Positions 16,200 through 59,780 of a DNA stretch of 64,000 nucleotides are shown here, piece after piece. The notes below the pieces were generated by a model that was not told the DNA's origin, searched no databases, and saw only the letters and a list, made by a program, of their open reading frames with translations. Location of the stretch: NCBI GenBank assembly GCA_038087875.1, contig CM075988.1, forward strand, positions 8,868,001 through 8,932,000. Direction: 5' to 3'. Source of the DNA: Malacoraja senta. Taxonomy: Eukaryota. The position numbers and the translations under genes were made by a program. Each line of letters begins with the position of its first letter. The stretch's first letter is position 1.

Positions 16200-16363
16200 A
16201 TCCTGCACTATCAATATATGTCACAACAAGTCACCCGCATGTAATAGTAAACATTGGCAACAATGCTACCCTTGACTGCAGTTACAAAACAGTCGTTGAA
16301 TCCCAGTTCTCTCTTGAATGGCGATTTACACCAGGGCCAACTGAAAATGCACAAGCAGAAAAG
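16200..16363 (+). CDS. VSIG2: VSIG2-like exon 2 (first half of V-type Ig domain)
   Basis: Acceptor cttttccAG at 16198-99, donor AAG|GTAAGT. Encodes PALSIYVTTSHPHVIVNIGNNATLDCSYKTVVESQFSLEWRF...AEK with the B-strand Cys and C-strand Trp. Confidence 0.92.
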
Positions 16364-16615
16364 GTAAGTTTTAGTTTTGCGTCATTCATTACTCCACATC
16401 ATAACATATCTCCTACTCACAACCATATGCCAGACCACAGGGAAAATAGGAACACTGTATTTATGGGGAAAGTTCAGCGATGTCTCACAGAATTATCTGC
16501 ACAGCTCTTTGGAAGGTGTTTACTAATACACAAACATTTAAGTTTGTAAATGTTACTGTTGAAAGTGAAATAAGGGACAGAACAGGGCACTGGGGAACTG
16601 AGAGGTGAGTTAAAT

Positions 16616-16925
16616 GTGTAGAAGGGAACTGCAGATGCTGGTTTATACCGAAGATAGACACAAAATGCTGGATTAACTCAACGGGTCAGACAGCATCTCT
16701 GGAGAAAAAGGATAGATGACGTTTCGGGTCGGGACCCTTCTTCAGACTGAAAGTAGAGGGGAGAGAACTGAAGGTAAGAAAAGGCCATAACAAAGCAGGG
16801 CCGGCAACAAATAACCAAGGAGGAGTGGAGCCCATAATGGCCCATTGTTGGTTAGGGATGAGGGGATAACGAAGGGAAACAAGGATGTGAACAGTGGAAC
16901 TAGTAGGACAACTAGGGTGGGGGAA
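16616..16925 (-). mobile_element. Penelope-derived 3' fragment
   Basis: Same tail and hammerhead-like core as the other copies, in reverse orientation. Confidence 0.7.
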
Positions 16926-17214
16926 GGGGTGAGTTAGATGTGCTTGATTAAGAGAATACATTGAAAGGTATAGATAGGCAAAGCTCAGCATTTAAGGAAA
17001 GAATGCATCAGTTGCAAAAAAAATCCTTCAAGGCATTAAAACCCACAATGAAAAATTATTAATCCATGGCTGACAAGAGAAATTGAAGTCAGCATTAAAT
17101 CCAAAGAGGAGGCTTATAAAGTTGCCAGAAATAGCAGTAGGCATTTACGGACTCAGTAAAGGAGGACCTAGAAATTGACAGATACAGGCAAGCTAGGATA
17201 TGAAAGTAGGATGG

Positions 17215-17357
17215 TAGGGTGGGAGATTGCAACGTTCACGTGGTCCGCCCTGTTTCGACGAATGCAATCAACCTGGCGTGCACAATCAAATAAGATCAAA
17301 TAGAACAAGTTGTCCGACAACTTTAGGCTGTGCAACTTTAGCCATACGCAAGAAGAA
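17215..17357 (+). mobile_element. Short non-autonomous ribozyme-headed retroelement (possibly Ingi/Vingi-derived)
   Basis: 13-bp TSD GAAAGTAGGATGG (17202-14 and 17358-70). 3' end CCATACGC(AAG)n. Inserted in an old CR1 fragment. Confidence 0.75.
17216..17269 (+). ncRNA. Minimal HDV-like ribozyme fold, copy A
   Basis: P1 AGGGTGG/CCGCCCT, P2 GATTGCA/TGCAATC, P3 ACG/GGT (1 mismatch), L3 TTCACGT, GT-TTCG-A in place of P4, J4/2 CGAA. Confidence 0.8.
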
Positions 17358-18260
17358 GAAAGTAGGATGGCGAGAAGTATAAAAATGGGGTGTGAAACCT
17401 ATACACTTTCTTAAAAAGGAAACTATGTGAGGATGAATATGGGCCCTTTACAGAGAGAGAGGCAGCAGAATTTATGGAAATACAAGAAACAGCAGACGCT
17501 GGAATCTGGAGCAGAATGTAAACTCAATGGATCAAACAGCATCTGAGGACTTCTGATGTAAGGTCTCGACTCGAAACGTCAACCATCATTTCATTCCCAC
17601 GGATGTTGTTTAACCCATTGAGTTCCTCTGGCAGTTGTTTTTTTTGCGACAGGAGAACTCATGATGATCTACAAGAAAAAAGCAGAGGAATTAAACAACC
17701 ACTTAGCATTTGTCTTTGCAGAGGCATGAGTTAGAGAATCAAAGGATAGGAAGAATGAGCTATTGTTCTAAAATAAGCACAGCTACAAGGTGGAGTGCTG
17801 GCAGTTCCACATTGGAATCCATACAGAGAGAAAGGATTAACAAATTGGAAGCAATTGGCTACTAAATCTTTGTACTGGATCAGAAGCCTCAGAAATTGTA
17901 GACTTTAGGAAGTGCAGATGCTTGTTTATCAAAAAAAGAGACAAAGAGCTGGAGCAAACCAGTGGGTCAGATGGAAAATCTGGAATACATGGATAGGCAA
18001 CAATTCGGGTCGGGACCCTTCTTCTCCCATGACTAAAGTCCACCAAACCAGAGTGGAGTGGGGCTACATATTCTGAAGAAGGGTCCCGACCTAAAACGTC
18101 ACCTCTCCATGTTCTCCAGAGAAACTGGCTGATCCGTTGTTACTCCAGCACTTTGTACTTCTAGGAGATTTATTATCTTACAAGGACAATGGTTAGACGG
18201 AATGAATCAAGATAATGTATTTTAACAAATGATTTCTTTAACATCATTTCATCTGTTTAG

Positions 18261-21509: not shown

Positions 21510-22430
21510 ATAAGATAAGATAAGATAAGACTTTATTAATCCCCTTATTCAGGGGAAATTAAGATGTCCTTGCAGCACACTAATAAAAATACAACATAGT
21601 GTTCAAAAAGAAGTTCAACACAAAAACATCCCCCACAATGGTTCCCACTGTGGGGGAAGGCACAAAGTCCAGTCCCCATCCTCTTGTCCACCCAGAGTCG
21701 GGCCCACTGAGGCCTCCACAGTCCCGCCACGGCGCCCGATATTCTCGCCCAGGCTCCGGGATGTACCGTTCAGCGTCGCAGCTGGGCCGCTCCACAGAAC
21801 TGCGGCTCCACGATGTTCCCATCGGCGGTCCCAACATACTGGAGTCCCAGCGCGGCGACCCAGGAAAGGCATCGCCCGCCCCACGACAGCGCTCCAGCGC
21901 TGCACCGCCGCCAAAGCTGATGTTCTGCGCCGCCGCCAAAGCCGGTGTTCTGGCCAGGTCCCCTCAGGGAAACGTCTGTGCCGCCGCCAAAGCCGGTGTT
22001 CTGGCTCCACGATGTTCCCATCGGCGGTCCCAGCATACTGGAGTCCCAGCACGGCGACCCAGGAAAGGCATCGCCCGCTCCACGACAGCGCTCCAGCGCT
22101 GCACCGCCGCCAAAGCCGATGTTCTGCGCCGCCGCCAAAGCCGATGTTCTGGCCAGGTCCCCCAGGAAAACGCCGCTCCAGGACCCGCTGGTAGGCCGCA
22201 AGGACAGGTCGAAGGCGCTGCTCGGAGGAAGGCAACCCCTCCGACCAGGTAGGGACTCGAAAAGCAGTTTCCCCCTTCCCCCCTTCCCCCCCTCCCTCCC
22301 ACCACCCCCCACACATAAAAAGATGAGGCCCCCTGACTACACACTAAACGTACCAAAAATAATAAAAAAGAAGGGAAAAAGACGGACAGCTGCAGGACAG
22401 GCAGCCGTTCAGGACAGCGCCTCCTCCTCT
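21510..22430 (-). mobile_element. GC-rich non-autonomous retroelement, family Y (homologous copy 11810-12495 on +)
   Basis: Shares the CCCTACCTGGTCG...GGCCTACCAGCGGG and GTGCCTTCCCCCACAGTGG blocks with 11900-12470. About 190-bp internal duplication and a (CTTAT)n tail. Confidence 0.65.
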
Positions 22431-23607: not shown

Positions 23608-23733
23608 CAGTAGATTCCAAAAAGGGAACCCTGATTCTGAGGAACCTCACAATGGAGGATTCGGGAATATACCGATGCATGTCATCCAATGTCCTTGGGG
23701 AACAATCATGTCAGCTGACTTTGTCAGTCACAG
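23608..23733 (+). CDS. VSIG2: VSIG2-like exon 5 (second half of C2 Ig domain)
   Basis: Tandem acceptors TAG-CAG-TAG (exon start 23608, 23611 or 23614), donor G|GTAATG. Encodes DSKKGTLILRNLTMEDSGIYRCMSSNVLGEQSCQLTLSVT (DxGxYxC plus the second extra Cys). Confidence 0.92.
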
Positions 23734-26700
23734 GTAATGGGCAAATCTCTATTCCAATTTGGACACTTAAAACATCAGAAACAGAGTTAATTATGGCTAT
23801 GAGCAAACACTAACAGATGGTGTTAGGCAAAACTATTTACAACATCATTTTTCTGGATAGGTTTGAAACACCGTGCTTCACTGTCCTCTGACATCTTGTG
23901 AATGCGTGGGCGGAATTCAGTAAGATTTAGGACGATTATGGAAAATTGATTTTAATAATCCCAATATTAAAAAAGAGTCCGGACCAGAAATCAGTTTGTA
24001 CCTGTTCCTGGTGTGCTTAAACATTGTTGTGTTCAATATTACTGCCTTTGAGGTATGCTCAAAATATTGTAGCTGGTTAAACATTTCCATCTTCTTAGGC
24101 AGTCCCTCGGGATCGAGGAAGGCTTGCCTCATTATGTGTGAACCGCAAACTCATTCACGTATAATGAAGGTGGAGCCTGACAGGATGGGCAAGTGGGTCA
24201 TCTGTGAGGCGTGCACTCTTTCCACCACTAATGCAGGGATTGTGTGTGGCCCTCATGAATGGACTCATGGTTCTCAATCCTAACATATGCTCCTTCTCCA
24301 TTTTGAGTGATCTGGAGTCAAACATAGAGCAGTACAACACAGGAAAAGGTCCTTTGGCCCACAATATCAGTGCCAGACATAATGCCAAGACAAACTCTAA
24401 TCTGTTTGTGAACAATATCCCTTCATTCCATGCATATCCATGCACACACCCAATAGCCTCTTAAATGCCATCATTGTATCTGCCTCGACTACCACTCCTG
24501 GCAGCGTGTTCCAAGCACCCAGCACCCAGTGTGTAAAAACCTGCCCTGCACATCTCCTTTAAACTTTGCCCCTCTCACCCTAAAGTTGCTACTAGTATTT
24601 AATATTTCCATCCTGAGAAAAATATTTTGACTTTCTCACCTCTCTAGGCCTCCTATGATAATGTTATATACTTCTATGTCTCCTCTCAACTTACAGCATT
24701 CCAGAGAAAATAATCCAAGTCTGTCCAAACTCTCCTTGTAGCTAATACCCTCTAATCTAGACATCATTCTTGTCAATGGGAAGGTTGCGTTTTTTTCAAG
24801 GAGACTTTAAGGACATGCTTGAATTTTTTTCCTCTGCGGGTTTTTTTGTAACAGAGATTGGAGGTGAGTGCCTATTTTTAAGAGTCCAATGTTAAACATC
24901 CACACAACATGGCCTGCCTAACTCAGTCGATAGAAGATAATTAGGGGCTCATTGCTAAGATGTTAGCCTGGGGTGGGATACTGATATCAGTTTGTTGATT
25001 CCACCTGTGAAATTGTAAGATTTTGCTGAGTCAATATTGAGAGTCAAGAGTCATGTGTTTAATTATCATTTGCATCAGGAATAGAACTATGGAAGGGAAT
25101 ACAAAATGCTGGAGGAACTCAGCGGTTAGCAGAGAGGGAATTGTTTACAAAAGCTGTTTCCCTACCTTGGGGGTATCATATATAGTGAGTTCAGTGGATG
25201 TTACTGTTATATATGGTATTTTAAATGTCATGAATACTGAGATATTACCAGCTGGTGTTGTTTTCCACCTATTCTGTGATAAGTCAAGGCAAATTCACAA
25301 GAAGATCTCAGATTCATTTCCTATTCTGCGCCAAGCTAATGTTAAGTGATTTCAATCATAGAAGAAAGGCCCCACTACGTCAGGAAGGCTGCCAACGCTC
25401 AGTGCAAGTAAAGAACGGGTTGCAATCACATCACCAGAGGATTGTCAGAGAGAAAATAGGTCACACACGATGGCCCCTGTATTGACGGCAACTAATTCAT
25501 ATCTTTCCATGGAGGTTGCCAGAATTTTCAAACTAGCACCATAACTGCACATAGTCGATAGTATTCCAAGTATTGATGGACAACTAAACCATTCCTGAGG
25601 ACTGCTTCCATGTCTGAACTACTTGAGCACTACAGCAAAAAAATGGATTGTAAAACTGACAATGATTTTCCAATGTTGCTTTTCTTGTTTGGCATTAAAC
25701 TCTGCTTTTATTAGACTCCCCCACATAGCCCTTAGTCTTTGACGATTGAAAGCAGTCACTTTTGTGGAGGACAAAAGGTTTCTAACTGTACATTTACTCA
25801 TAATTATTAGGTATTTTCAACTCTAAGAACAGTTAGCTATCAGCAAGCAGAAATTACATACATTTATAATTTCTATGCTTTTCACAAACCTGCCTAGATT
25901 TAAGTCAGACAATATTTTCAATTAGCATTTACTTTCGCCTGATTATACCTCTGTCAAGGACATTTTAATGCAATAAGGTGTTATATTGTTCATTCTGGAG
26001 AAGATCATTCTCACAGACAATGTTGTCACGTAAAATTGGTCGAAAATTATATGAAAAAACATTAATTTTTATTTTTATTATTGTTTAAACAGAGGGTCTG
26101 ACATAAGGGGATGCCGATTCAAACTAATGAAAGATAATTTTAGGATTAAACTCAGGGGATATGTTTCCATGTGGATTGTGAAGTGATTGGGCAGAATGTG
26201 AAAATTAAAAATCCCCCTGTAAACTCTCTTATTCCCTTTGTGCTCTCTCTAATCTTATCCAGTCAATGACATCAGCTTTATGGATTCATGGATTCATAAG
26301 ATTCACATGGACAGAATGTCGTACAAATGGCACACCATGTGACTGTGATAAAAGTAAACTGTCGCTGCTAATTCTAGATCCATTAACAGGTTTTGACATG
26401 AATTAATTACAACATGCTCCTACAATTTTCTCCCATCAATATCCAGTTAAATGTGTGTAGTTCCAAGGACAAGGCCAAGACATCATCAAAAATGTTACTT
26501 CTGATGACCGCATGGTTTATCCTTCCATTATATGCAGCAACATCGTTGAAACCTAATGAGAGATGTCACATGTCTCTTTTTGACCTGTAACTCCACGTCC
26601 CTGCTACATCTCAGGACAACTCCAGAGTCTTTGCGCTGTGAAACTGTCAGAACTGCATGTGCAAAAAAAGACACAAAGTGAGGACAACCTCTTAAGAATG

Positions 26701-45290: not shown

Positions 45291-45964
45291 TTAGCTCAAG
45301 AAATTTTTCTCTTCTTCAATTAGGACTAAGGTTCTTCATTACTTCCATCTGTCCTTGCTGACAGATGCTTATTTTAAACTTAATGGGAGTGTAGAATCTT
45401 CAACAGCTCGATCAATAGTGCATTGAAATGTCAATCTTAGATTATGTGCTCAAATTCTGGATTTTAAATTAGGTAGTTAAATCCTAAAGTAGGGATTTAA
45501 TGAAAAGCCTCTGATAGTGGTGAGAGTGAGACTAAGCCAACACATTACTTTTAATTCAGTTTAGCTTCAGGTGGAAGTGGATTAGGAACACAATCATTTG
45601 TTGGATATACCTGCATGTGTTTATTGTAGGCACCCAGGAGATTTCTAAGTAACAGATAGAATGCTTTTGTACATTACATGTGTACAGTGAAGAATAAATG
45701 CTGCTCCTATGGAATCCCTTAATGGTTGCTTTGCTGAGAGTTAGAGTGATAATGGCACTCAAGTTTTCCAGGTCAGCTCTGTCGCGTAACTTTTCCAAGC
45801 AATTTTTTGTAGCTGGTATGAAGAACAAGCAAAAGGTAGGAATGAAAAGAAAATTAGGCTCAGTGCAATTAGGAGATTTTTGTTGGCTGGGAATATTGAA
45901 GGGTGAGCAGCTGAGAAAGTTGGAGTTCAGATATAGATCAGTTAGTTTAGTTTAGTTTAGAGAT

Positions 45965-46017
45965 GGGGGTCAAGGAAAGAGCATTCACGTCGCGGCCCTG
46001 TTTCCACCAATCTTTCC
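45965..46017 (+). ncRNA. Minimal HDV-like ribozyme fold, copy B
   Basis: P1 GGGGGTC/GGCCCT, P2 GGAAAGA/TCTTTCC, P3 GCA/CGC (1 mismatch), L3 TTCACGT, GT-TTCCA, J4/2 CCAA. Confidence 0.8.
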
Positions 46018-46135
46018 ACCACCATGCACAAGAAGCACAAGAAACACAAGACAGACACCATTGTGCAGATGCCGAGAAGTGTGTTCAGCTCTGGCTGAAC
46101 AACTTCTAATCTTGTACGTGGACTTGATAAGAAGA
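45965..46135 (+). mobile_element. Short non-autonomous ribozyme-headed retroelement, second subfamily
   Basis: TSD AGTTTAGAGAT/AGGTTAGAGAT (45954-64 and 46136-46), (AAG)n tail. Inserted into the tail of a minus-strand V-SINE. Confidence 0.72.
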
Positions 46136-46834
46136 AGGTTAGAGATACAGAATGGAAACAGGTCATGCGGTGAAAGGAGTTCATGCCGACATCTTCACAC
46201 TAGTTCTATGTTATCCCACTTTCTCATCCATTGCCTACACACGAGGGGGAAATTTACAAAGGCCAATTAACGTACAAACCTGCACGTCTTTGGGATGTGG
46301 GAGGAAACCGGAGCACCCGGAGGAAACCCATATGGTCACAGGGAGAAGGTAGAAACTCCACAGAGGCAGCACCTGAGGTCAGGATGGAACCCAGGTCTCT
46401 AATGTTGTGAGGCAGCGGCTCCACCAGCTGCACCACTGAGCAGCATTAACCTGAATGTCACCTATGTGGTTTAGTGTGCACTTTAATAGAACGCTGGCCG
46501 TTGACAATAATAAAGGCTAGGAAAATAATATGTGGCAACTAGCAATGAAGGGAAAGGAAATCCAGAGTATAGGAGTGATTTCAGTGATATTATCATTGTC
46601 TCTGTGTTAGGACATTGAGTCCAGAACTAGGGGCCACAGTTTAAGAATAAGGGGTAAGCCATTTAGAACTGAGATGAGGAAACACTTTTTCTCACAGAGA
46701 GTTGTGAGTCTGTGGAATTCTCTGCCTCAGGGCGGTGGAGGCTGGTTTTCTGGATACTTTCAAGAGGGAGCTAGCTAGGGCTCTTAAAGGTAGCGGAGTC
46801 AGGGGATATGGGGAGAAGGCAGGAACGGGGTACT

Positions 46835-53619: not shown

Positions 53620-53935
53620 CTGGAGGACTGGTGACGGGATCTAGGGAGTGGGTAGGGTCGAGGATGTCCTGGTTAGGTTGCTCCAAGGCCTGGCCAAGCT
53701 GCCATCCGCGAGTCACAGCGGAAGAGGGTTTTGCCCGAGCCAGATGCTTGCCCCTTTTGCGGGGTTACGTTCACGCCCGGGTGGTGTTAGAGAGGGACAT
53801 GGTTGTTTAATAGATATTTAGTATATTCGTAAGGATTGTAACATAGTTGTTTGAAAATGTAATGTCTAGATAATTTGGTGATTTTGTACTATGGTGGCGG
53901 GTGTGTAACCATGGTTTTGTTTTGTACCATTGCAG
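53620..53935 (+). mobile_element. Tx1-clade LINE 3' fragment
   Basis: Translations GLAKL / AIRES and CLPLLRGYVHARVVLERD resemble the recalled Tx1 ORF2 C-terminus, followed by an AT-rich UTR. A-rich tail resumes at 57204-57241. Confidence 0.55.
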
Positions 53936-56900
53936 ATATCCTGGCGGGGAGATCTGCAAAGGCTACTGGGGAGACTTTAAACTAGAATGGTTGGGGGGAG
54001 GGACTCAAATAGAGAATGCTATTAGACAGTGTGTGAGGCAGGAGGCAGAGAAGGAAAGCACTCAGACACAACATGTAGGGGGGAAAGAAGAAAACAATAA
54101 TAAACAGAGAATAAGAGGTGGTGGGGTTCTTAAATGGGTGAGCAGAGAAACAGAGGGGTGTAAAATGCGGGCTGAAGCAATAGGTAGCAAGGTGAAAAGT
54201 AAAAGTGGCAGGCAGACAAATCCAGGGCAAAAATCAAAAAGGGCCACTTTTCAACATAATTGTATAAGGGGTAAGAGCATTGTAAAAACAAGCCTGAAGG
54301 CTTTGTGTCTCAATGCAAGGAGCATTCGTAATAAGGTGGATGAGTTGAACTTGCAGATAGCAATTAATGATTATGATATAGTTGGGATCACGGAGACATG
54401 GCTCCAGGGTGACCAAGGCTGGGAGCTGAACATCCAGGGATATTCAATATTCAGGAGGGATAGAGAGAAAGGAAAAGGAGGTGGGGTAGCGTTGCTGGTT
54501 AGAGAGGAGATTAACGCAGTGGAAAGGAAGGACATTAGCTTGGAGGATGTGGAATCGGTATGGGTAGAGCTGCGAAACACTAAGGGGCAAAAAACGCTGG
54601 TGGGTGTTGTGTACAGGCCACTTAGCAGTAGTAGTGAAGTTGGGGATGGCATCAAACAGGAAATTAGAAATGCGTGCAACAAAGGCAAAACAGTTATAAT
54701 GGGGGACTTCAATCTACATATAGATTGGGTGAATCAAATTGGCAGGGGTGCTGAGGAAGAGGATTTCTTGGAATGTATGCGGGATAGTTATCTAAACCAA
54801 CATGTAGAGGAACCAACGAGAGAGCAGGCTATTCTAGACTGGGTATTGAGTAATAAGGAAGGGTTAGTTAGCAGTCTTGTTGTGCGTGCCCCCTTGGGCA
54901 AGAGTGACCATAATATGGTTGAGTTCTTCATTAGGATGGAGAGTGACATTGTTAATTCAGAAACAACGGTTCTGAACTTAAAGAAAGGTAACTTTGAGGG
55001 TATGAGACGTGAATTCGCCAAGATTGACTGGCAATTAGTTCTAAAAGGGTTGACGGTGGATATGCAATGGAAGGCATTTAAAGACTGCATGGATGAACTA
55101 CAAAAATTGTTGATCCCAGTTTGGCAAAAGAATAAATCAGGGAAGGTAGTGCATCCATGGATAACAAGGGAAATCAGGGATAGTATCAAAGCAAAAGATG
55201 ATGCGTACAAATTAGCCAGAAAAAGCAGCATACCAGAGGACTGGGAGAAATTCAGAGACCAGCAGAGGAGGACAAAGGGCTTAATTAGGAAAGGGAAAAT
55301 AGATTATGAAAGGAAACTGGCAGGGAACATAAAAACTGACTGCAAAAGTTTTTATAGATATGTGAAGAGAAAGAGATTGGTTAAAACAAATGTAGGTCCC
55401 TTGCAGTCAGAAACAGGTGAATTGATCATGGGGAACAAGGATATGGCGGACCAATTGAATAACTACTTTGGTTCCGTCTTCACTAAGGAAGACATAAATA
55501 ATCTGCCGGAAATAGCAGGGGGCCGCGGGTCAGAGATGGAGGAACTGAGTGAAATCCAGGTTAGTCGGGAAGCGGTGTTGGGTAAATTGAATGGATTAAA
55601 GGCCGATAAATCACCAGGGCCAGATAGGCTGCATCCCAGAGTACTTAAGGAAGTAGCTCCAGAAATAGTGGATGCATTAGTGATAATTTTTCAAAACTCT
55701 TTAGATTCTGGAGTAGTTCCTGAGGATTGGAGGGTAGCAAACGTAACCCCACTTTTTTAGAAGGGAGGGAGAGAGAAAACGGGGAATTACAGACCAGTTA
55801 GTCTAACATCGGTAGTGGGGAAACTGCTAGAGTCAGTTATTAAAGATGGGATAGCAGCACATTTGGAAAGTGGTGAAATCATTGGACAAAGTCAGCATGG
55901 ATTTACGAAAGGTAAATCGTGTCTGACGAATCTTATAGAAGTTTTCGAGGATGTAACGAGTAGAGTGGATAGGGGAGAACCAGTGGATGTGTTGTATCTG
56001 GACTTTCAGAAGGCTTTCGACAAGGTACCACATAAGAGATTAGGATACAAACTTAAATCACACGGTATTGGGGGTTCAGTATTGATGTGGATAGAGAACT
56101 GGCTGGCAAACAGGAAGCAAAGAGTAGGAGTAAACGGGTCCTTTTCACAATGGCAGGCAGTGACTAGTGGGGTACCGCAAGGCTCAGTGCTGGGACCCCA
56201 GCTATTTACAATTTATATTAATGACCTGGATGAGGGAATTGAAAGCAACATCTCCAAGTTTGCGGATGACACTAAGCTGGGGGGCAGTGTTAGCTGTGAG
56301 GAGGATGCTAGGAGACTGCAAGGTGACTTGGATAGGCTGGGTGAGTGGGCAAATGTTTGGCTGATGCAGTATAATGTGGATAAATGTGAGGTTATCCACT
56401 TTGGTGGCAAAAACGGGAAGGCAGAATATTATCTAAATGGTGGCCGATTAGGAAATGGGGAGATGCAGCAGACCTGGGTATCATGGTACACCAGTCATTG
56501 AAAGTAGGCATGCAGGTGCAGCAGGCAGTGAAGAAAGCGAATGGTATGTTGGCTTTCATAGCAAGAGGATTTGAGTATAGGAGCAGGGAGGTTCTACTGC
56601 AGTTGTACAGAGTCTTGGTGAGACCACACCTGGAGTATTGCGTACAGTTTTGGTCTCCAAATCTGAGGAAGGACATTATAGCCATAGAGGGAGTGCAGAG
56701 GAGGTTCACCAGACTGATTCCTGGGATGTCAGGACTTTCATATGAAGAAAGACTGGATAGACTTGGCTTATACTCGCTAGAATTTAGGAGATTGAGAGGG
56801 GATCTTATAGAAACGTACAAAATTCTTATGGGGTTGGACAGGCTAGATGCAGGAAGATTGTTCCCGATGTTGGGGAAGTCCAGGACAAGGGGTCACAGCT

Positions 56901-57203
56901 TAAGGATAAGGGGGAAATCCTTTAAGACCGAGATGAGGAAAAACTTTTTCACACAGAGAGTGGTGAATCTCTGGAACTCTCCGCCACAGAGGGTAGTTGA
57001 GGCCAGTTCATTGGCTATATTTAAGAGCGAGTTAGATGTGGCCCTTGTGGCTAAGGGGATCAGGGGGTATGGAGAGAAGGCAGGTACGGGATACTGAGTT
57101 GGATGATCAGCCATGATCATATTGAATGGCGGTGCAGGCTCGAAGGGCCGAATGGCCTACTCCTGCACCTATTTTCTATGTTTCTATGTTTCTATGTTTC
57201 TAT
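53936..57203 (+). mobile_element. Near full-length-ORF2 CR1 (HER1-like) LINE, disabled
   Basis: APE endonuclease motifs (LNARS, GITETW, MGDFN, SDHN) and RT motifs (LDFQKAFD, GVPQGSVLGP, FADD). One in-frame stop at 55758-60, a frameshift near 56470, and a (TCTATGTT)n tail at 57174-57203. Confidence 0.95.
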
Positions 57204-57241
57204 GATCGTAATTAAATAAATTATTTTTGATTAAAAAAAAA

Positions 57242-58385: not shown

Positions 58386-58564
58386 ACATAGGAATGACCT
58401 TCTCTATTAATCTGATTGTGGGTCACATTACCACAGCCAACCCCAGAGCTGCGACAAGTGACTGCTCCGAAGTCTGAAGAAGGGTCGCGACCCAAAACGT
58501 CACCCATTCCTTCTCTCCAGAGATGCTGCCTGTCCCGCTGAGTTACTCCAGCATTTTGTGTCTG

Positions 58565-58765
58565 TCTTCAGCACAAGTACCTGCTCCGTCCCGACTCCAG
58601 CGTTTCTCCGGTTTCGACCCTTGCGCGCTCCGTAGGTGAGAGCCCGAGCCGCCGTTTCCAGGCAACGATTCAACAACTTGACAACGGAACAGCGGGGCCT
58701 AGCAACGGCGCCTAGCAACGGCGGGCGGGTCGAGGACAAACAGCGGGGAGCCGGGAGCGACGGAG
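58565..58765. promoter_or_regulatory. CpG-rich promoter of SPA17 with RFX X-boxes
   Basis: Non-repeat CpG-dense island with X-box GTTTCCAGGCAAC (58654-66) and two CCTAGCAAC half-sites (58698-706, 58711-719). Possible non-coding exon donor TAG|GTGAGA at 58635/6. Confidence 0.7.
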
Positions 58766-58767
58766 GG

Positions 58768-59780
58768 AGAGAGGGGTAGACCTGGCTAGAGAGGGGTAGA
58801 ACTGGGATAAAGGGGTAGAACTGGCTAGAGAGGGGTAGACCTGGCTAGAGAGGGGGTAGAGCTGGGATAAAGGGGTAGAACTGGCTAGAGAGGGGTAGAA
58901 CTGGGATAAAGGGGTAGAACTGGCTAGAGAGGGATAGAACTGGGATAAAGGGGTAGAACTGGCTAGAGAGGGGTAGACCTGGCTAGAGAGGGGTAGAACT
59001 GGGATAAAGGGGTAGAACTGGGATAAAGGGGTAGAACTGGCTAGAGAGGGGTAGAACTGGGATAAAGGGGTAGACCTGGCTAGAGAGGGGTAGAACTGGG
59101 ATAAAGGGAGAGACCTGGGATAAAGAGAGAGAGATCTGGGAGAGGGAGAGAGACTTGGGAGAGGGAGAGAGACTTGGGAGAGAAGGGTAGACCTGGGAGA
59201 GAGGGAGAGATCTGGGATAAAGGAGTAGACCTGGTAGAGCGATAGAGACCTGGAAGAGAGGGAGAGATCTGGGATAAAGGGGTAGTCCTGGGAGAGGGAG
59301 AGAGACCTGGGAGAGAGGAGTATACCTGAGAGAGAGGGAGAGAGATCTGGGAGAGAGACCTGAGAGAGAGAGGGGTAGACCTGGGAGAGAGGGAGGGAGA
59401 TACCGGAGAGAGACCTGGGAGAGAGGGAGAGACCTGGGATAAAGGGAGAGACGAGATTAGGAGAGATCTGGGACAGAGAGGCAGTCCCAAGACGAGACAA
59501 GCATAAGGATAAGGAAGGAAGAGGGAAAAACCTGGGACAAAGGGAGAGAAAGACTTAGGATAGGTATAGAAAGAGGGAGGGACCTGGGGCAAGAACAGTA
59601 ATTGAGATACAAAGGTCTAGACAGAGAAGATACCTAGGACAGGGAAAGGAAAAGCCCTAGAAGTGGGAGAGGAGATATCTGGGACAAAGAGGTAGAGCTC
59701 TGGGATAGGGAGACGAGGCAAGTGAGAAAGGGAGGAAGAAAACCTGGGTCAGAAAGAAGAGATTCCTGGGATAGAGAGGC
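58768..59780. repeat. Purine-rich minisatellite (19-20-bp units) in SPA17 intron 1
   Basis: Alternating CTGGCTAGAGAGGGGTAGAA and CTGGGATAAAGGGGTAGAA units that decay progressively to the right. Confidence 0.9.

What the first reader, a model, noticed from the sequence alone, without database searches (positions are those of the whole stretch)
17202..17370. Ribozyme-headed mini-retroelement: minimal HDV-like ribozyme at the 5' end of a 143-bp insertion (copy A)
Seen: a 143-bp insert with a 13-bp TSD and an (AAG)n tail, with no tRNA A/B boxes. Its first 55 nt follow the HDV nested double-pseudoknot order: P1 17216-22/17245-51, P2 17225-31/17263-69 (7/7), P3 17232-34/17242-44, L3 UUCACGU, and catalytic-position C in CGAA at 17259. 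P4 is reduced to a UUCG loop. The predicted cleavage site lies 1 nt from the 5' insertion junction. Known: Ingi/L1Tc, R2 and some RTE retrotransposons use 5' HDV-like ribozymes, and trypanosome RIME/NARTc are short derivatives of such elements. Inference: this is a Pol III-independent SINE analogue that cuts itself out of host transcripts and is mobilised by an Ingi/Vingi-type RT. It is in sense orientation in VSIG2 intron 2, so an active copy would cut the pre-mRNA.
Basis: partly seen in the sequence, partly recalled or inferred. Interest (0 to 1): 0.88.

Follow-up and report, generated by a model that had tools for sequence, protein, structure and literature searches.

The report
Ribozyme-headed short retroelement, decayed copy
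A 142-base jumping-gene copy in an intron of a cartilaginous-fish VSIG2 gene belongs to a family of thousands whose first 54 bases fold like the self-cutting HDV/CPEB3 ribozyme, which most likely trims the RNA to its exact start before a partner LINE copies it back into the genome.

Summary
Copy A (17215-17357) has a 13-bp target-site duplication (TSD), an (AAG)n tail and the stated HDV-type helices. The fold alone is within chance: a loose descriptor gives about 1.7 hits per shuffled window. The family evidence decides it.

- The genome holds 5,796 pattern matches against 0 for the reversed control.
- TSDs end within 2 nt of G1 in 54 of 69 copies.
- A second P4-less family, B, also has a copy in the window (45966-46137).
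- A 3.1-kb LINE has the same head with a full P4, a 940-aa APE+RT ORF and an (AAG)n tail. Its head scores 64 bits on Rfam's CPEB3 ribozyme model, whose cut-off is 35.
- Six families covary in all four helices.
- Published Repbase Vingi 5' ends carry the same sequence.

Verdict: a non-autonomous, probably Vingi-mobilised retroelement whose 5' end is made by a minimal HDV-like ribozyme. This copy is probably crippled. Cleavage itself is untested. The mechanism is known; the P4-less vertebrate form and the link to the mammalian CPEB3 ribozyme appear new.

The parts
17202..17214 (+). 5' copy of the target-site duplication GAAAGTAGGATGG
   Evidence: identical to 17358-17370
17215..17215 (+). one extra T between the TSD and ribozyme position 1 (untemplated base or microhomology)
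   Evidence: T at -1 in 40 of 78 copies against 28% background
17216..17269 (+). 54-nt P4-less HDV-like (CPEB3-type) ribozyme head: P1 17216-22/17245-51, J1/2 17223-24, P2 17225-31/17263-69, P3 17232-34/17242-44, L3 17235-41, GU 17252-53, P4 remnant UUCGA 17254-58, J4/2 CGAA 17259-62
17216..17216 (+). position 1 is A here and G in the family-A majority sequence, so the G1.U wobble at the cleavage site is lost
17234..17234 (+). G here and C in the family-A majority sequence; breaks the P3 pair next to L3
17259..17259 (+). C at the catalytic position of J4/2, aligned with the CPEB3 model's C in CGAAU
   Evidence: the column is at least 90% conserved in A2
17270..17349 (+). element body, with hairpin AAGTTGT-CCG-ACAACTT at 17307-17323 and a 5-nt insertion plus one substitution near 17335-17341 relative to the family
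   Evidence: most contigs leave out 1+4 letters at 17335/17337 (table 4)
17350..17357 (+). (AAG)n tail
17358..17370 (+). 3' copy of the target-site duplication
16364..18260 (+). host GT-AG intron between the two half-exons of a V-set domain (VSIG2-like); copy A lies in it in sense orientation
   Evidence: (run X1, record 1 joins 16361 to 18259)
45966..46137 (+). copy of sister family B: 52-nt P4-less ribozyme 45966-46017 (P1 GGGGTC/GGCCCT, P2 GGAAAGA/TCTTTCC, P3 GCA/CGC here and GCG/CGC in the family), body, (AAG)3 tail 46129-46137; TSD TTAGAGAT at 45957-64 and 46139-46

Best explanation
Copy A is a slightly decayed member of a young, abundant family of about 136-nt non-autonomous non-LTR retroelements ('family A') in an elasmobranch genome.

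Proposed mechanism:
1. The element has no promoter of its own. It is transcribed as part of longer host transcripts.
2. Its first 54 nt fold into a minimal (P4-less) HDV-like double pseudoknot of the CPEB3 type. This cuts the RNA immediately 5' of G1, giving a defined 5' end.
3. A compact, single-ORF APE+RT LINE of the same genome ('family C') reverse-transcribes the RNA by target-primed reverse transcription, starting from the (AAG)n tail. This LINE is probably of the Vingi clade. It has the same ribozyme type with a full P4 at its own 5' end and the same (AAG)n tail.
4. The cDNA runs to G1. It joins the target through 0-2 untemplated bases or G/T microhomology, leaving 6-16-bp TSDs.

Shown: insertion anatomy, family size, 5' ends at G1, covariation of all helices, and a LINE with the same head and tail.

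Inferred: catalysis, read-through transcription, and which LINE mobilises it.

Copy A itself (A1, P3 mismatch, 5-nt insertion) is probably weak or dead as a ribozyme, so it is unlikely to cut the VSIG2 pre-mRNA efficiently.
For: - Anatomy of copy A.
- Family size. One search found 796 first-look candidates, of which 40 were scored, at 94-95% identity to copy A. The core pattern has 3,164 + 2,632 matches in the genome against 0 + 0 for the reversed control. By my count, the first 100 rows hold 87 distinct elements: 73 A and 14 B.
- The family-A majority sequence restores G1 and P3 ACC/GGT.
- 5' ends. Of 81 distinct loci, 69 have a TSD of at least 6 bp. The TSD ends at 0 (21), -1 (15), +1 (11), -2 (4) or +2 (3) nt from G1, which is 54 of 69. 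Sequence upstream of G1 is unrelated between copies.
- Family B has the same layout, but P1, P2 and P3 are changed in a compensatory way.
- Rfam CPEB3_ribozyme (cut-off 35 bits). B copies score 27.9-43.7 bits. In the genome, 39 of 59 scored places are over the cut-off, best 64.2. All 12 sources rescanned lie over the cut-off.
- LINE C has the ribozyme at its 5' end, a 940-aa ORF with Exo_endo_phos and RVT_1, an (AAG)4 tail and the 12-bp TSD GACAGAACAAAA.
- B shares its first 36 nt (83%) and last 17 nt (15 of 17) with LINE C.
- Covariation over 18 sequences of six families: 89.3% of cells are paired against 37-46% when the partner is slid. 18 of 25 pairs change on both sides against 1-5 when slid. 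0 of 500 shuffles reach these values.
- P4-less HDV-like ribozymes are an accepted class: 'Minimal drzs ... lack the P4 domain' (passage of PMC10879173).
- HDV-like ribozymes are known to make the 5' ends of non-LTR elements and their non-autonomous derivatives (passages of PMC6765202, and PMC5786205).
Against: - No cleavage assay was run. No run is on record as RNA, and contigs cannot show RNA ends.
- The fold of a single copy is within chance for a loose descriptor: 1.7 hits per shuffled window.
- Family A is not recognised by any Rfam model. The window copy scores 10.6 bits, and near-majority (consensus-like) copies L002 and L016 give no hit at E <= 10.
- The nested MFE fold is no better than shuffles, z = -0.28.
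- Family A shares only motif-level similarity and the tail with LINE C, so its partner is inferred.
- In L1Tc the same 77 nt are both promoter and ribozyme (abstract of PMC3383444). A transcription start at G1 therefore cannot be excluded.
- The loci were chosen as best full-length matches, or by a pattern that demands GGGG. The absence of 5'-truncated copies is therefore due to selection.
- Double changes GTG/CAC in P3 of family B occur at about the rate expected from independent CpG decay. Within-family variation therefore gives no extra support.
Confidence: 0.8

Rival explanations
1. The 54-nt head is mainly an internal promoter or a protein-binding 5' module. The RNA begins at G1 because transcription starts there. 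The ribozyme-like fold is retained for another reason, such as stability against 5' exonucleases or recognition by the LINE protein. It would work like Pr77 of L1Tc, where one sequence is both promoter and ribozyme.
For: The L1Tc/NARTc first 77 nt are an internal promoter as well as an HDV-like ribozyme (abstract of PMC3383444; passage in PMC8256844). A review describes the folded ribozyme as giving 'cap-like protection' in R2-based templates (PMC13708176). No RNA data are available here.
Against: All four helices covary, while L3, the GU linker and the C-N-A-A-U of J4/2 stay fixed. That pattern fits a catalytic core better than a DNA promoter. The LINE head scores 64 bits on a model built from a proven self-cleaver. 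No tRNA-like head was found. This rival also does not exclude cleavage, since both functions can coexist.
Confidence: 0.12
2. The P4-less heads of families A and B are catalytically dead relics of the LINE ribozyme. The copies spread for another reason, for example template switching of the LINE reverse transcriptase onto a structured end.
For: P4 is absent. Family A fails every Rfam model. No assay was done.
Against: Thousands of copies lie only 2-12% from the family-A and family-B majority sequences and begin exactly at G1. Their helices are intact and compensated relative to LINE C. P4-less HDV-like ribozymes are a recognised class (PMC10879173). A dead head would not explain a precise 5' end without a promoter.
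Confidence: 0.06
3. Chance resemblance: an ordinary short retroposon whose 5' end happens to fit an HDV descriptor.
For: The loose descriptor hits shuffled windows 1.7 times on average. Copy A reaches only E = 8.4 on the CPEB3 model.
Against: Family consensus, a second family, a LINE head well over the Rfam cut-off, and covariation.
Confidence: 0.02

Closest known systems
Mammalian CPEB3 ribozyme (Rfam RF00622)
   Same: Same nested double-pseudoknot layout. L3 is UUCACGU, followed by a GU linker and C-G-A-A-U in J4/2. Family B shares AGCGUUCACGUCGCGGCCC with the model consensus. LINE C scores 64.2 bits. The old family E has the model's P1, its P4 stem CAGAUUC/GAAUCUG, and its P2 except for one compensated pair. 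Like CPEB3, copy A sits in sense orientation in an intron.
   Different: It is multi-copy and retroelement-borne, and it lies in a cartilaginous fish rather than in the CPEB3 gene. Families A and B lack P4. Family A has other P1, P2 and P3 letters and does not reach the model's cut-off.
L1Tc / NARTc (Ingi clade, Trypanosoma cruzi) 5' HDV-like ribozyme (Pr77)
   Same: An HDV-like ribozyme forms the very 5' end of a LINE and of its short non-autonomous derivative, releasing them from longer transcripts (PMC3185411 and PMC3383444 abstracts).
   Different: The host is a protist and the tail is poly(A). The 77 nt are also a promoter, which was not tested here. Here the short elements have a P4-less head that differs from the LINE's.
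R2 ribozyme and R2 SIDEs (Drosophila)
   Same: A 5' ribozyme gives the precise 5' end from a co-transcript. Internally deleted non-autonomous copies keep the ribozyme and the 3' end (PMC3414825 abstract).
   Different: R2 is site-specific for 28S rDNA and uses a restriction-like endonuclease. The present elements are dispersed, and the LINE has an APE endonuclease.
Vingi-clade LINEs and their bipartite derivatives (Repbase Vingi-2_Gav, Vingi-4_Crp, Vingi-1_BF, Vingi-2_SPur; SINE2-1_AMi)
   Same: The published alignments show 5' ends GGGGCCATAGCAGAAGCGTTCACGTCGCG.CCCCTGTCAG...CTGCGAATTCTGC, which is the same head (supplement of PMC5786205). Vingi-2_Gav is 3,128 nt and LINE C is about 3,138 nt. 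Both have a single ORF without RNase H. Vingi is one of four clades reported to make bipartite non-autonomous LINEs.
   Different: Clade membership of LINE C was not tested by an RT tree. [quoted passage not shown]
Minimal P4-less HDV-like ribozymes (drz-Mtgn, theta ribozymes of gut phages)
   Same: P4 is missing and the total size is about 50-55 nt (PMC10879173).
   Different: Those come from metagenomes and phages, next to tRNAs. These sit at the 5' end of a vertebrate retroelement and have a CPEB3-type core.
RTE and Baggins HDV-like ribozymes (Ruminski et al. 2011)
   Same: Promoter-less LINEs in introns, processed by 5' HDV-like ribozymes (passage of PMC6765202).
   Different: The original paper is not held, so no sequence comparison was possible.

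Membership tests
HDV-like (drz) self-cleaving ribozymes | Nested double pseudoknot in the order P1-P2-P3-L3-P3'-P1'-(P4)-J4/2-P2' | tested here: met
   for copy A; 89.3% of cells are paired over six families, 18 of 25 pairs change on both sides, and slid controls give 37-46%.
HDV-like (drz) self-cleaving ribozymes | G1.U wobble closing P1 at the cleavage site | tested here: met
   Met in the family: G.U in 7 of 13 informative rows of A2 and in the family-A and family-B majority sequences. Not met in copy A itself, which has A-U.
HDV-like (drz) self-cleaving ribozymes | Catalytic C in J4/2, followed by N-A-A | tested here: met
   C17259 in CGAA. The column is at least 90% conserved, and the A and T two and four columns further on are invariant, in A2.
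HDV-like (drz) self-cleaving ribozymes | Site-specific self-scission giving 5'-OH at +1 | not testable with these tools
   Indirect only: retrocopies start at G1.
Rfam CPEB3_ribozyme RF00622 | Score of at least 35 bits on the covariance model | tested here: not met
   Copy A scores 10.6 bits. A copies L002 and L016 give no hit at E <= 10. The feature is met by relatives: B copies up to 43.7 bits, and LINE C and families D, E and F at 38.4-64.2 bits.
Rfam CPEB3_ribozyme RF00622 | Single-copy element in an intron of the mammalian CPEB3 gene | tested here: not met
   It is multi-copy, and the host is an elasmobranch by the names of the nearest VSIG2 homologues.
Classical SINE (Pol III head from tRNA, 7SL or 5S) | Small-RNA-derived head with an internal promoter | tested here: not met
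   ARAGORN finds nothing. No Rfam family reaches gathering score.
Bipartite non-autonomous LINE (NARTc / SIDE / Vingi-N type) | The 5' end and 3' end of a parent LINE joined, with no ORF | tested here: inconclusive
   B shares its 5' 36 nt (83%, E 1e-5) and 3' 17 nt (15 of 17) with LINE C. A shares only the core motifs and the (AAG)n tail.
Vingi clade (for the partner LINE) | RT phylogeny as sister of Ingi; single ORF with APE and RT, no RNase H | tested here: inconclusive
   The architecture fits. The 5' head matches Repbase Vingi 5' ends by eye. No tree with reference RTs was made, and RTE is not excluded.
Minimal (P4-less) drz | P4 replaced by a few linker nucleotides | tested here: met
   Five nt lie between the GU linker and the catalytic C: UUCGA in A and UUCCA in B.

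The most novel reading that the evidence does not exclude
Families A and B are living, minimal offshoots of the retroelement lineage that gave mammals the CPEB3 ribozyme. On this reading the CPEB3 ribozyme is a domesticated 5' head of a Vingi-type LINE, or of one of its short derivatives.

Evidence:
- Family E here has the CPEB3 model's P1, its P4 stem CAGAUUC/GAAUCUG, and its P2 except for one compensated pair, although these helices vary freely among families A-F.
- The published 5' end of Vingi-2_Gav is the same as the Rfam CPEB3 consensus at all but 2 positions outside distal P4, by my count by eye.
- The alligator SINE2-1_AMi has the same P4 stem.

[quoted passage not shown] It also lists ribozyme-bearing LINE clades without Vingi (PMC5786205).

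A second novel point: a 52-54-nt P4-less form appears to be enough for 5' processing in a vertebrate.
Probability: 0.7. Interest if true: 0.8.

Novelty: new variant of a known kind. Interest (0 to 1): 0.72.

Why it matters
Ribozyme-made 5' ends of non-LTR retrotransposons are known in insects, trypanosomes and some other invertebrates. This finding adds three things.

1. It is a vertebrate case with thousands of young copies and a LINE copy with an unbroken 940-aa ORF.
2. It shows that a P4-less, 52-54-nt form, so far described from metagenomes and phages, sits at the 5' end of a successful eukaryotic retroelement.
3. It gives the mammalian CPEB3 ribozyme both relatives outside mammals and a plausible source. 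That ribozyme has been studied for its link to memory and has been described as lacking outgroups.

The last point makes the ribozyme's origin directly testable. Sense-oriented intronic copies such as this one are also natural experiments on what a self-cleaving intron does to splicing.

Tried and rejected
- **RNA evidence.** No RNA holder is listed. I laid contigs of four runs. They cannot show RNA ends. They did not settle whether the orthologous site is empty in related species, because contigs stop at the repeat boundary, for example at 17214 in run X11. Two contigs of X1, whose 'RNA?' label is a guess, carry A copies inside longer sequence, which is uninformative.
- **Nested MFE fold of copy A.** z = -0.28. 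This is uninformative for a pseudoknot.
- **My covariance model R1.** It could not be run on this genome.
- **Search for a LINE by ribozyme A followed by non-SINE letters.** 0 matches.
- **Search for further families with another middle pair in P3.** By my count of the 42 listed rows, 40 are family-B copies, most with GTG/CAC. One is a family-A copy with a deletion in P3, and one has a small insertion.
- **GTG/CAC as a sign of selection.** Single changes occur in 2 + 2 of the 14 B copies listed. The doubles therefore fit independent CpG decay. I rejected them as evidence.
- **(AAG)n tails in 344 kb of loci plus the window.** No LINE end was found.
- **The LINE in the window (53.9-57.2 kb).** It is CR1-like with a (CTATGTTT)n tail, so it is not the partner.
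- **ESM Atlas.** It gave only generic RVT_1 clusters.
- **Earlier findings of this scan.** None.
- **Papers not held.** Kojima 2011, Ruminski 2011 and PMC3256348.
- **Kojima 2018 supplement.** It has no Vingi-2_ACar 3'-end alignment.
- **Not in print, as far as searched.** 'HDV-like' + ribozyme + shark gave 2 unrelated papers. 'Vingi' + ribozyme gave 6 papers, none assigning a ribozyme to Vingi. 'CPEB3 ribozyme' + retrotransposon + origin gave 19 papers (18 listed); from titles and abstracts, none names a source element. Subscription journals and patents were not searchable.
Full report
**1. The observation**

- GAAAGTAGGATGG occurs at 17202-17214 and again at 17358-17370.
- A 143-nt insert lies between them and ends in AAGAAGAA.
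- The stated helices are there: P1 17216-22 with 17245-51 (seven pairs, A-U at position 1); P2 17225-31 with 17263-69 (7 of 7); P3 17232-34 with 17242-44 (two pairs and a G x G mismatch).
- L3 is UUCACGU, and C17259 sits in CGAA.
- ARAGORN finds no tRNA, and no Rfam family reaches its gathering score anywhere in the window.

Taken alone, the fold is not beyond chance.
- A loose descriptor of my own finds copy A and one other site in the window. It finds on average 1.7 sites in each of 30 dinucleotide-preserving shuffles.
- Rfam's CPEB3 model gives copy A 10.6 bits, E = 8.4.
- The nested MFE is no better than shuffles, z = -0.28.

What that alignment did show is that L3, the GU after P1 and CGAAU match the CPEB3 ribozyme letter for letter. 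The fold also starts one base from a boundary that the TSD defines independently.

**2. The family**

The window lies in a 1.94-Gb genome.
- Copy A has 796 first-look candidates there. The 40 that were scored are 94-95% identical to it.
- The majority sequence of 30 loci begins GGGGTGG... and reads ACC TTCACGT GGT.
- Copy A carries three private defects: A1, the P3 mismatch, and a 5-nt insertion plus one substitution near 17335-17341 (table 4).
- A pattern for the core (GGGG, TTCACGT, CCTGTTTC) has 3,164 + 2,632 matches, against none for the reversed control. By my count the first 100 rows are 87 distinct elements, 73 of family A and 14 of a second family.
- Pattern-selected copies lie 3-12% from the family-A and family-B majority sequences (mean 6.7% for A, n = 18). 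The best-hit sets lie about 2% from it.

**3. A second family in the same window**

A weak BLAST hit led to 45966-46137, a copy of 'family B'.
- It has 1,507 candidates, of which 40 were scored at 93-97% identity.
- It is 172 nt long with an (AAG)n tail. Here the TSD is TTAGAGAT.
- Its head has the same layout and the same fixed letters: UUCACGU, GU, a 5-nt stand-in for P4, and C-N-A-A-U.
- Its helices differ: P1 GGGGUC/GGCCCU, P2 GGAAAGA/UCUUUCC, P3 GCG/CGC.
- B copies score 27.9-43.7 bits on the CPEB3 model, whose cut-off is 35.

**4. The 5' ends**

Of 81 distinct loci, 69 have a TSD of at least 6 bp. It ends 0 (21), -1 (15), +1 (11), -2 (4) or +2 (3) nt from G1, which is 54 of 69 within 2 nt. 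In several of the 15 others (for example L002, L016, L017, L030, L046, L085, by eye) the TSD has an internal mismatch, which my exact-match rule cut short. Nine loci had no TSD and three were truncated or disrupted.

Sequence upstream of G1 is unrelated between copies.

One caveat: the loci were chosen as best full-length matches or by a pattern demanding GGGG. The lack of 5'-truncated copies is therefore due to selection. The end of similarity at G1 is not.

The base before G1 is T in 40 of 78 copies, against 28% background. It usually lies inside the TSD. I read this as microhomology with an untemplated A on the cDNA; that is inference.

**5. The autonomous element**

A search of the genome with Rfam's CPEB3 model gave 59 scored places of 102,231 candidates. 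Of these, 39 are over the cut-off and the best scores 64.2 bits.

The top places are the 5' ends of a LINE ('C').
- The head is GGGGAUC AA GGUAGAA GCG UUCACGU CGC GAUCCCU GU, then an 8-bp P4, then C GAAU UCUACC.
- About 26 nt of leader follow, then an ORF that opens with an APE endonuclease.
- One copy, read through, has a 940-aa ORF with Exo_endo_phos and RVT_1 and no RNase H hit. It has a 220-nt 3' UTR, an (AAG)4 tail and the 12-bp TSD GACAGAACAAAA, about 3.14 kb in all.
- Family B shares its first 36 nt (83%) and its last 17 nt (GACTCGATAAGAAGAAG against GACACGAAAAGAAGAAG) with this LINE. Family A shares only the core motifs and the tail.

LINE C is the likely partner because it has the same tail, the same TSD size and the same kind of head. 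That partnership is inferred, not shown.

**6. More families, and covariation**

Other places are three further families: D, E and F. All 12 rescanned sources lie over the Rfam cut-off, at 38.4-64.2 bits.

I aligned 18 sequences of six families.
- 89.3% of cells form standard pairs, against 37-46% when the 3' partner is slid by 1-3 columns.
- 18 of 25 pairs change on both sides, against 1-5 when slid.
- 0 of 500 shuffles reach the observed values.
- P2 was not used by MAFFT or by any model. It is 94.6% paired, and 6 of its 7 pairs are compensated.

The double pseudoknot is therefore under selection in this lineage.

**7. Which LINE clade**

The LINE protein has 48-58% identical relatives in sea urchin, lancelet, starfish, insects, Anolis and a notothenioid fish.

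In the text of Kojima 2018 (PMC5786205) I read passages, not the whole text; of its one supplementary file I read only the matched passages.
- The supplement prints alignments in which the 5' ends of Repbase Vingi-2_Gav (positions 2-74 of 3,128 nt), Vingi-4_Crp, Vingi-1_BF and Vingi-2_SPur, and the middle of the alligator SINE2-1_AMi, read GGGGCCATAGCAGAAGCGTTCACGTCGCG.CCCCTGTCAG...CTGCGAATTCTGC. That is this head.
- The paper says that bipartite non-autonomous LINEs are reported only for RTE, Ingi, Vingi and R2.

LINE C is thus probably a Vingi element, my estimate about 0.75. An RT tree was not made and RTE is not excluded.

**8. Host gene**

A contig of run X1 joins 16361 to 18259.
- The genome there has AAAG|GTAAGT and TTTAG|ATT, which is a GT-AG intron on the + strand.
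- The two exons are the two halves of a V-set domain.
- The nearest named proteins are VSIG2 or VSIG2-like of 15 elasmobranchs. The best is 96% identical, from a skate.

Copy A is therefore in sense orientation in a VSIG2 intron of a cartilaginous fish. The intron number was not checked.

**9. How it most likely works**

The element is transcribed by read-through. The head cuts itself 5' of G1. The LINE reverse-transcribes from the (AAG)n tail and runs to G1.

P4-less HDV-like ribozymes are a recognised class (PMC10879173 passage). 5' HDV-like ribozymes of promoter-less LINEs and of non-autonomous elements are textbook (PMC6765202 passage). The mechanism is therefore of a known kind.

Not shown here: catalysis, RNA ends in vivo, and the partner. 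No run is on record as RNA.

**10. The wider point**

Here the Rfam model for that ribozyme is matched far above its cut-off by retroelement heads of a cartilaginous fish.
- The old, low-copy family E has five places at 83-88% identity.
- It has the model's P1, the model's P4 stem CAGAUUC/GAAUCUG, and the model's P2 except for one compensated pair.
- These helices vary freely among families A-F, so convergence is unlikely.
- The same P4 stem is in SINE2-1_AMi. Outside distal P4, Vingi-2_Gav differs from the Rfam consensus at two positions, by my count by eye.

I therefore think the CPEB3 ribozyme descends from a Vingi-type 5' head.

I found no statement of this in the library. Subscription journals, patents and the unavailable papers may hold one. 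The HDV-like ribozymes that Webb et al. reported in sea urchin, lancelet and lamprey (listed in PMC8256844) may be the same elements under another name.

**11. Verdict**

The mechanism is of a known kind, in a new variant: P4-less, vertebrate, CPEB3-type. Copy A itself is an ordinary, probably inactive copy. The interest lies in the family and in its link to CPEB3.

Noticed in passing
window 45957-46146: Copy of a second P4-less ribozyme-headed family (B). TSD TTAGAGAT, (AAG)3 tail. P3 reads GCA/CGC here (a CpG change).
   Followed up: yes
L092+L094 (G000:C1:217550415-217555200): A 3.14-kb LINE copy with a CPEB3-type ribozyme at its 5' end (5'-truncated by 2 nt), an unbroken 940-aa APE+RT ORF, an (AAG)4 tail and the TSD GACAGAACAAAA.
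   Followed up: yes
L098, L099, L101, L105, L107: Old low-copy family E. Its head has the mammalian CPEB3 consensus P1, its P4 stem, and its P2 except for one compensated pair; L3 is UUCUCGU. Copies share only the head plus about 30 nt. L107 runs on into ATGATGTCC, like the LINE's start codon region.
   Followed up: partly
L095-L097, L112 and L100, L103, L106, L108: Families D (long P4, J4/2 CUAAU) and F (short P4). F looks like an element of about 100 nt ending CCAACTGTAA, a different tail from A, B and C. In B, D, E and F the head is followed by ACCAC.
   Followed up: partly
loci L001-L090, position -1 of the elements: T precedes G1 in 40 of 78 copies (background 28%), mostly as the last base of the TSD.
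   Followed up: partly
window 53901-57204 (+): CR1-like LINE with APE and RT ORFs (619, 228 and 204 aa) and a (CTATGTTT)n tail. It is unrelated to the (AAG)n elements.
   Followed up: partly
window 16605-16766 and 58470-58570: A very abundant short repeat (GGTCGCGACCCAAAACGTCACCCATTCC...). Summed contig depth there is about 10^5 times the flanks in all three DNA runs.
   Followed up: no
window about 23689-23785 (-): The only other match to my loose HDV descriptor. One or two such matches are expected by chance.
   Followed up: no
window 58765-59481: Minisatellite of about 19-20-bp units (AGAGAGGGGTAGAACTGGCT)n, about 700 bp. There is also a 199-bp tandem duplication at 21804-22172.
   Followed up: no
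family B copies genome-wide: About two dozen B copies have P3 GTG/CAC instead of GCG/CGC. It looks like a compensated pair, but it occurs at about the frequency expected from two independent CpG decays.
   Followed up: yes
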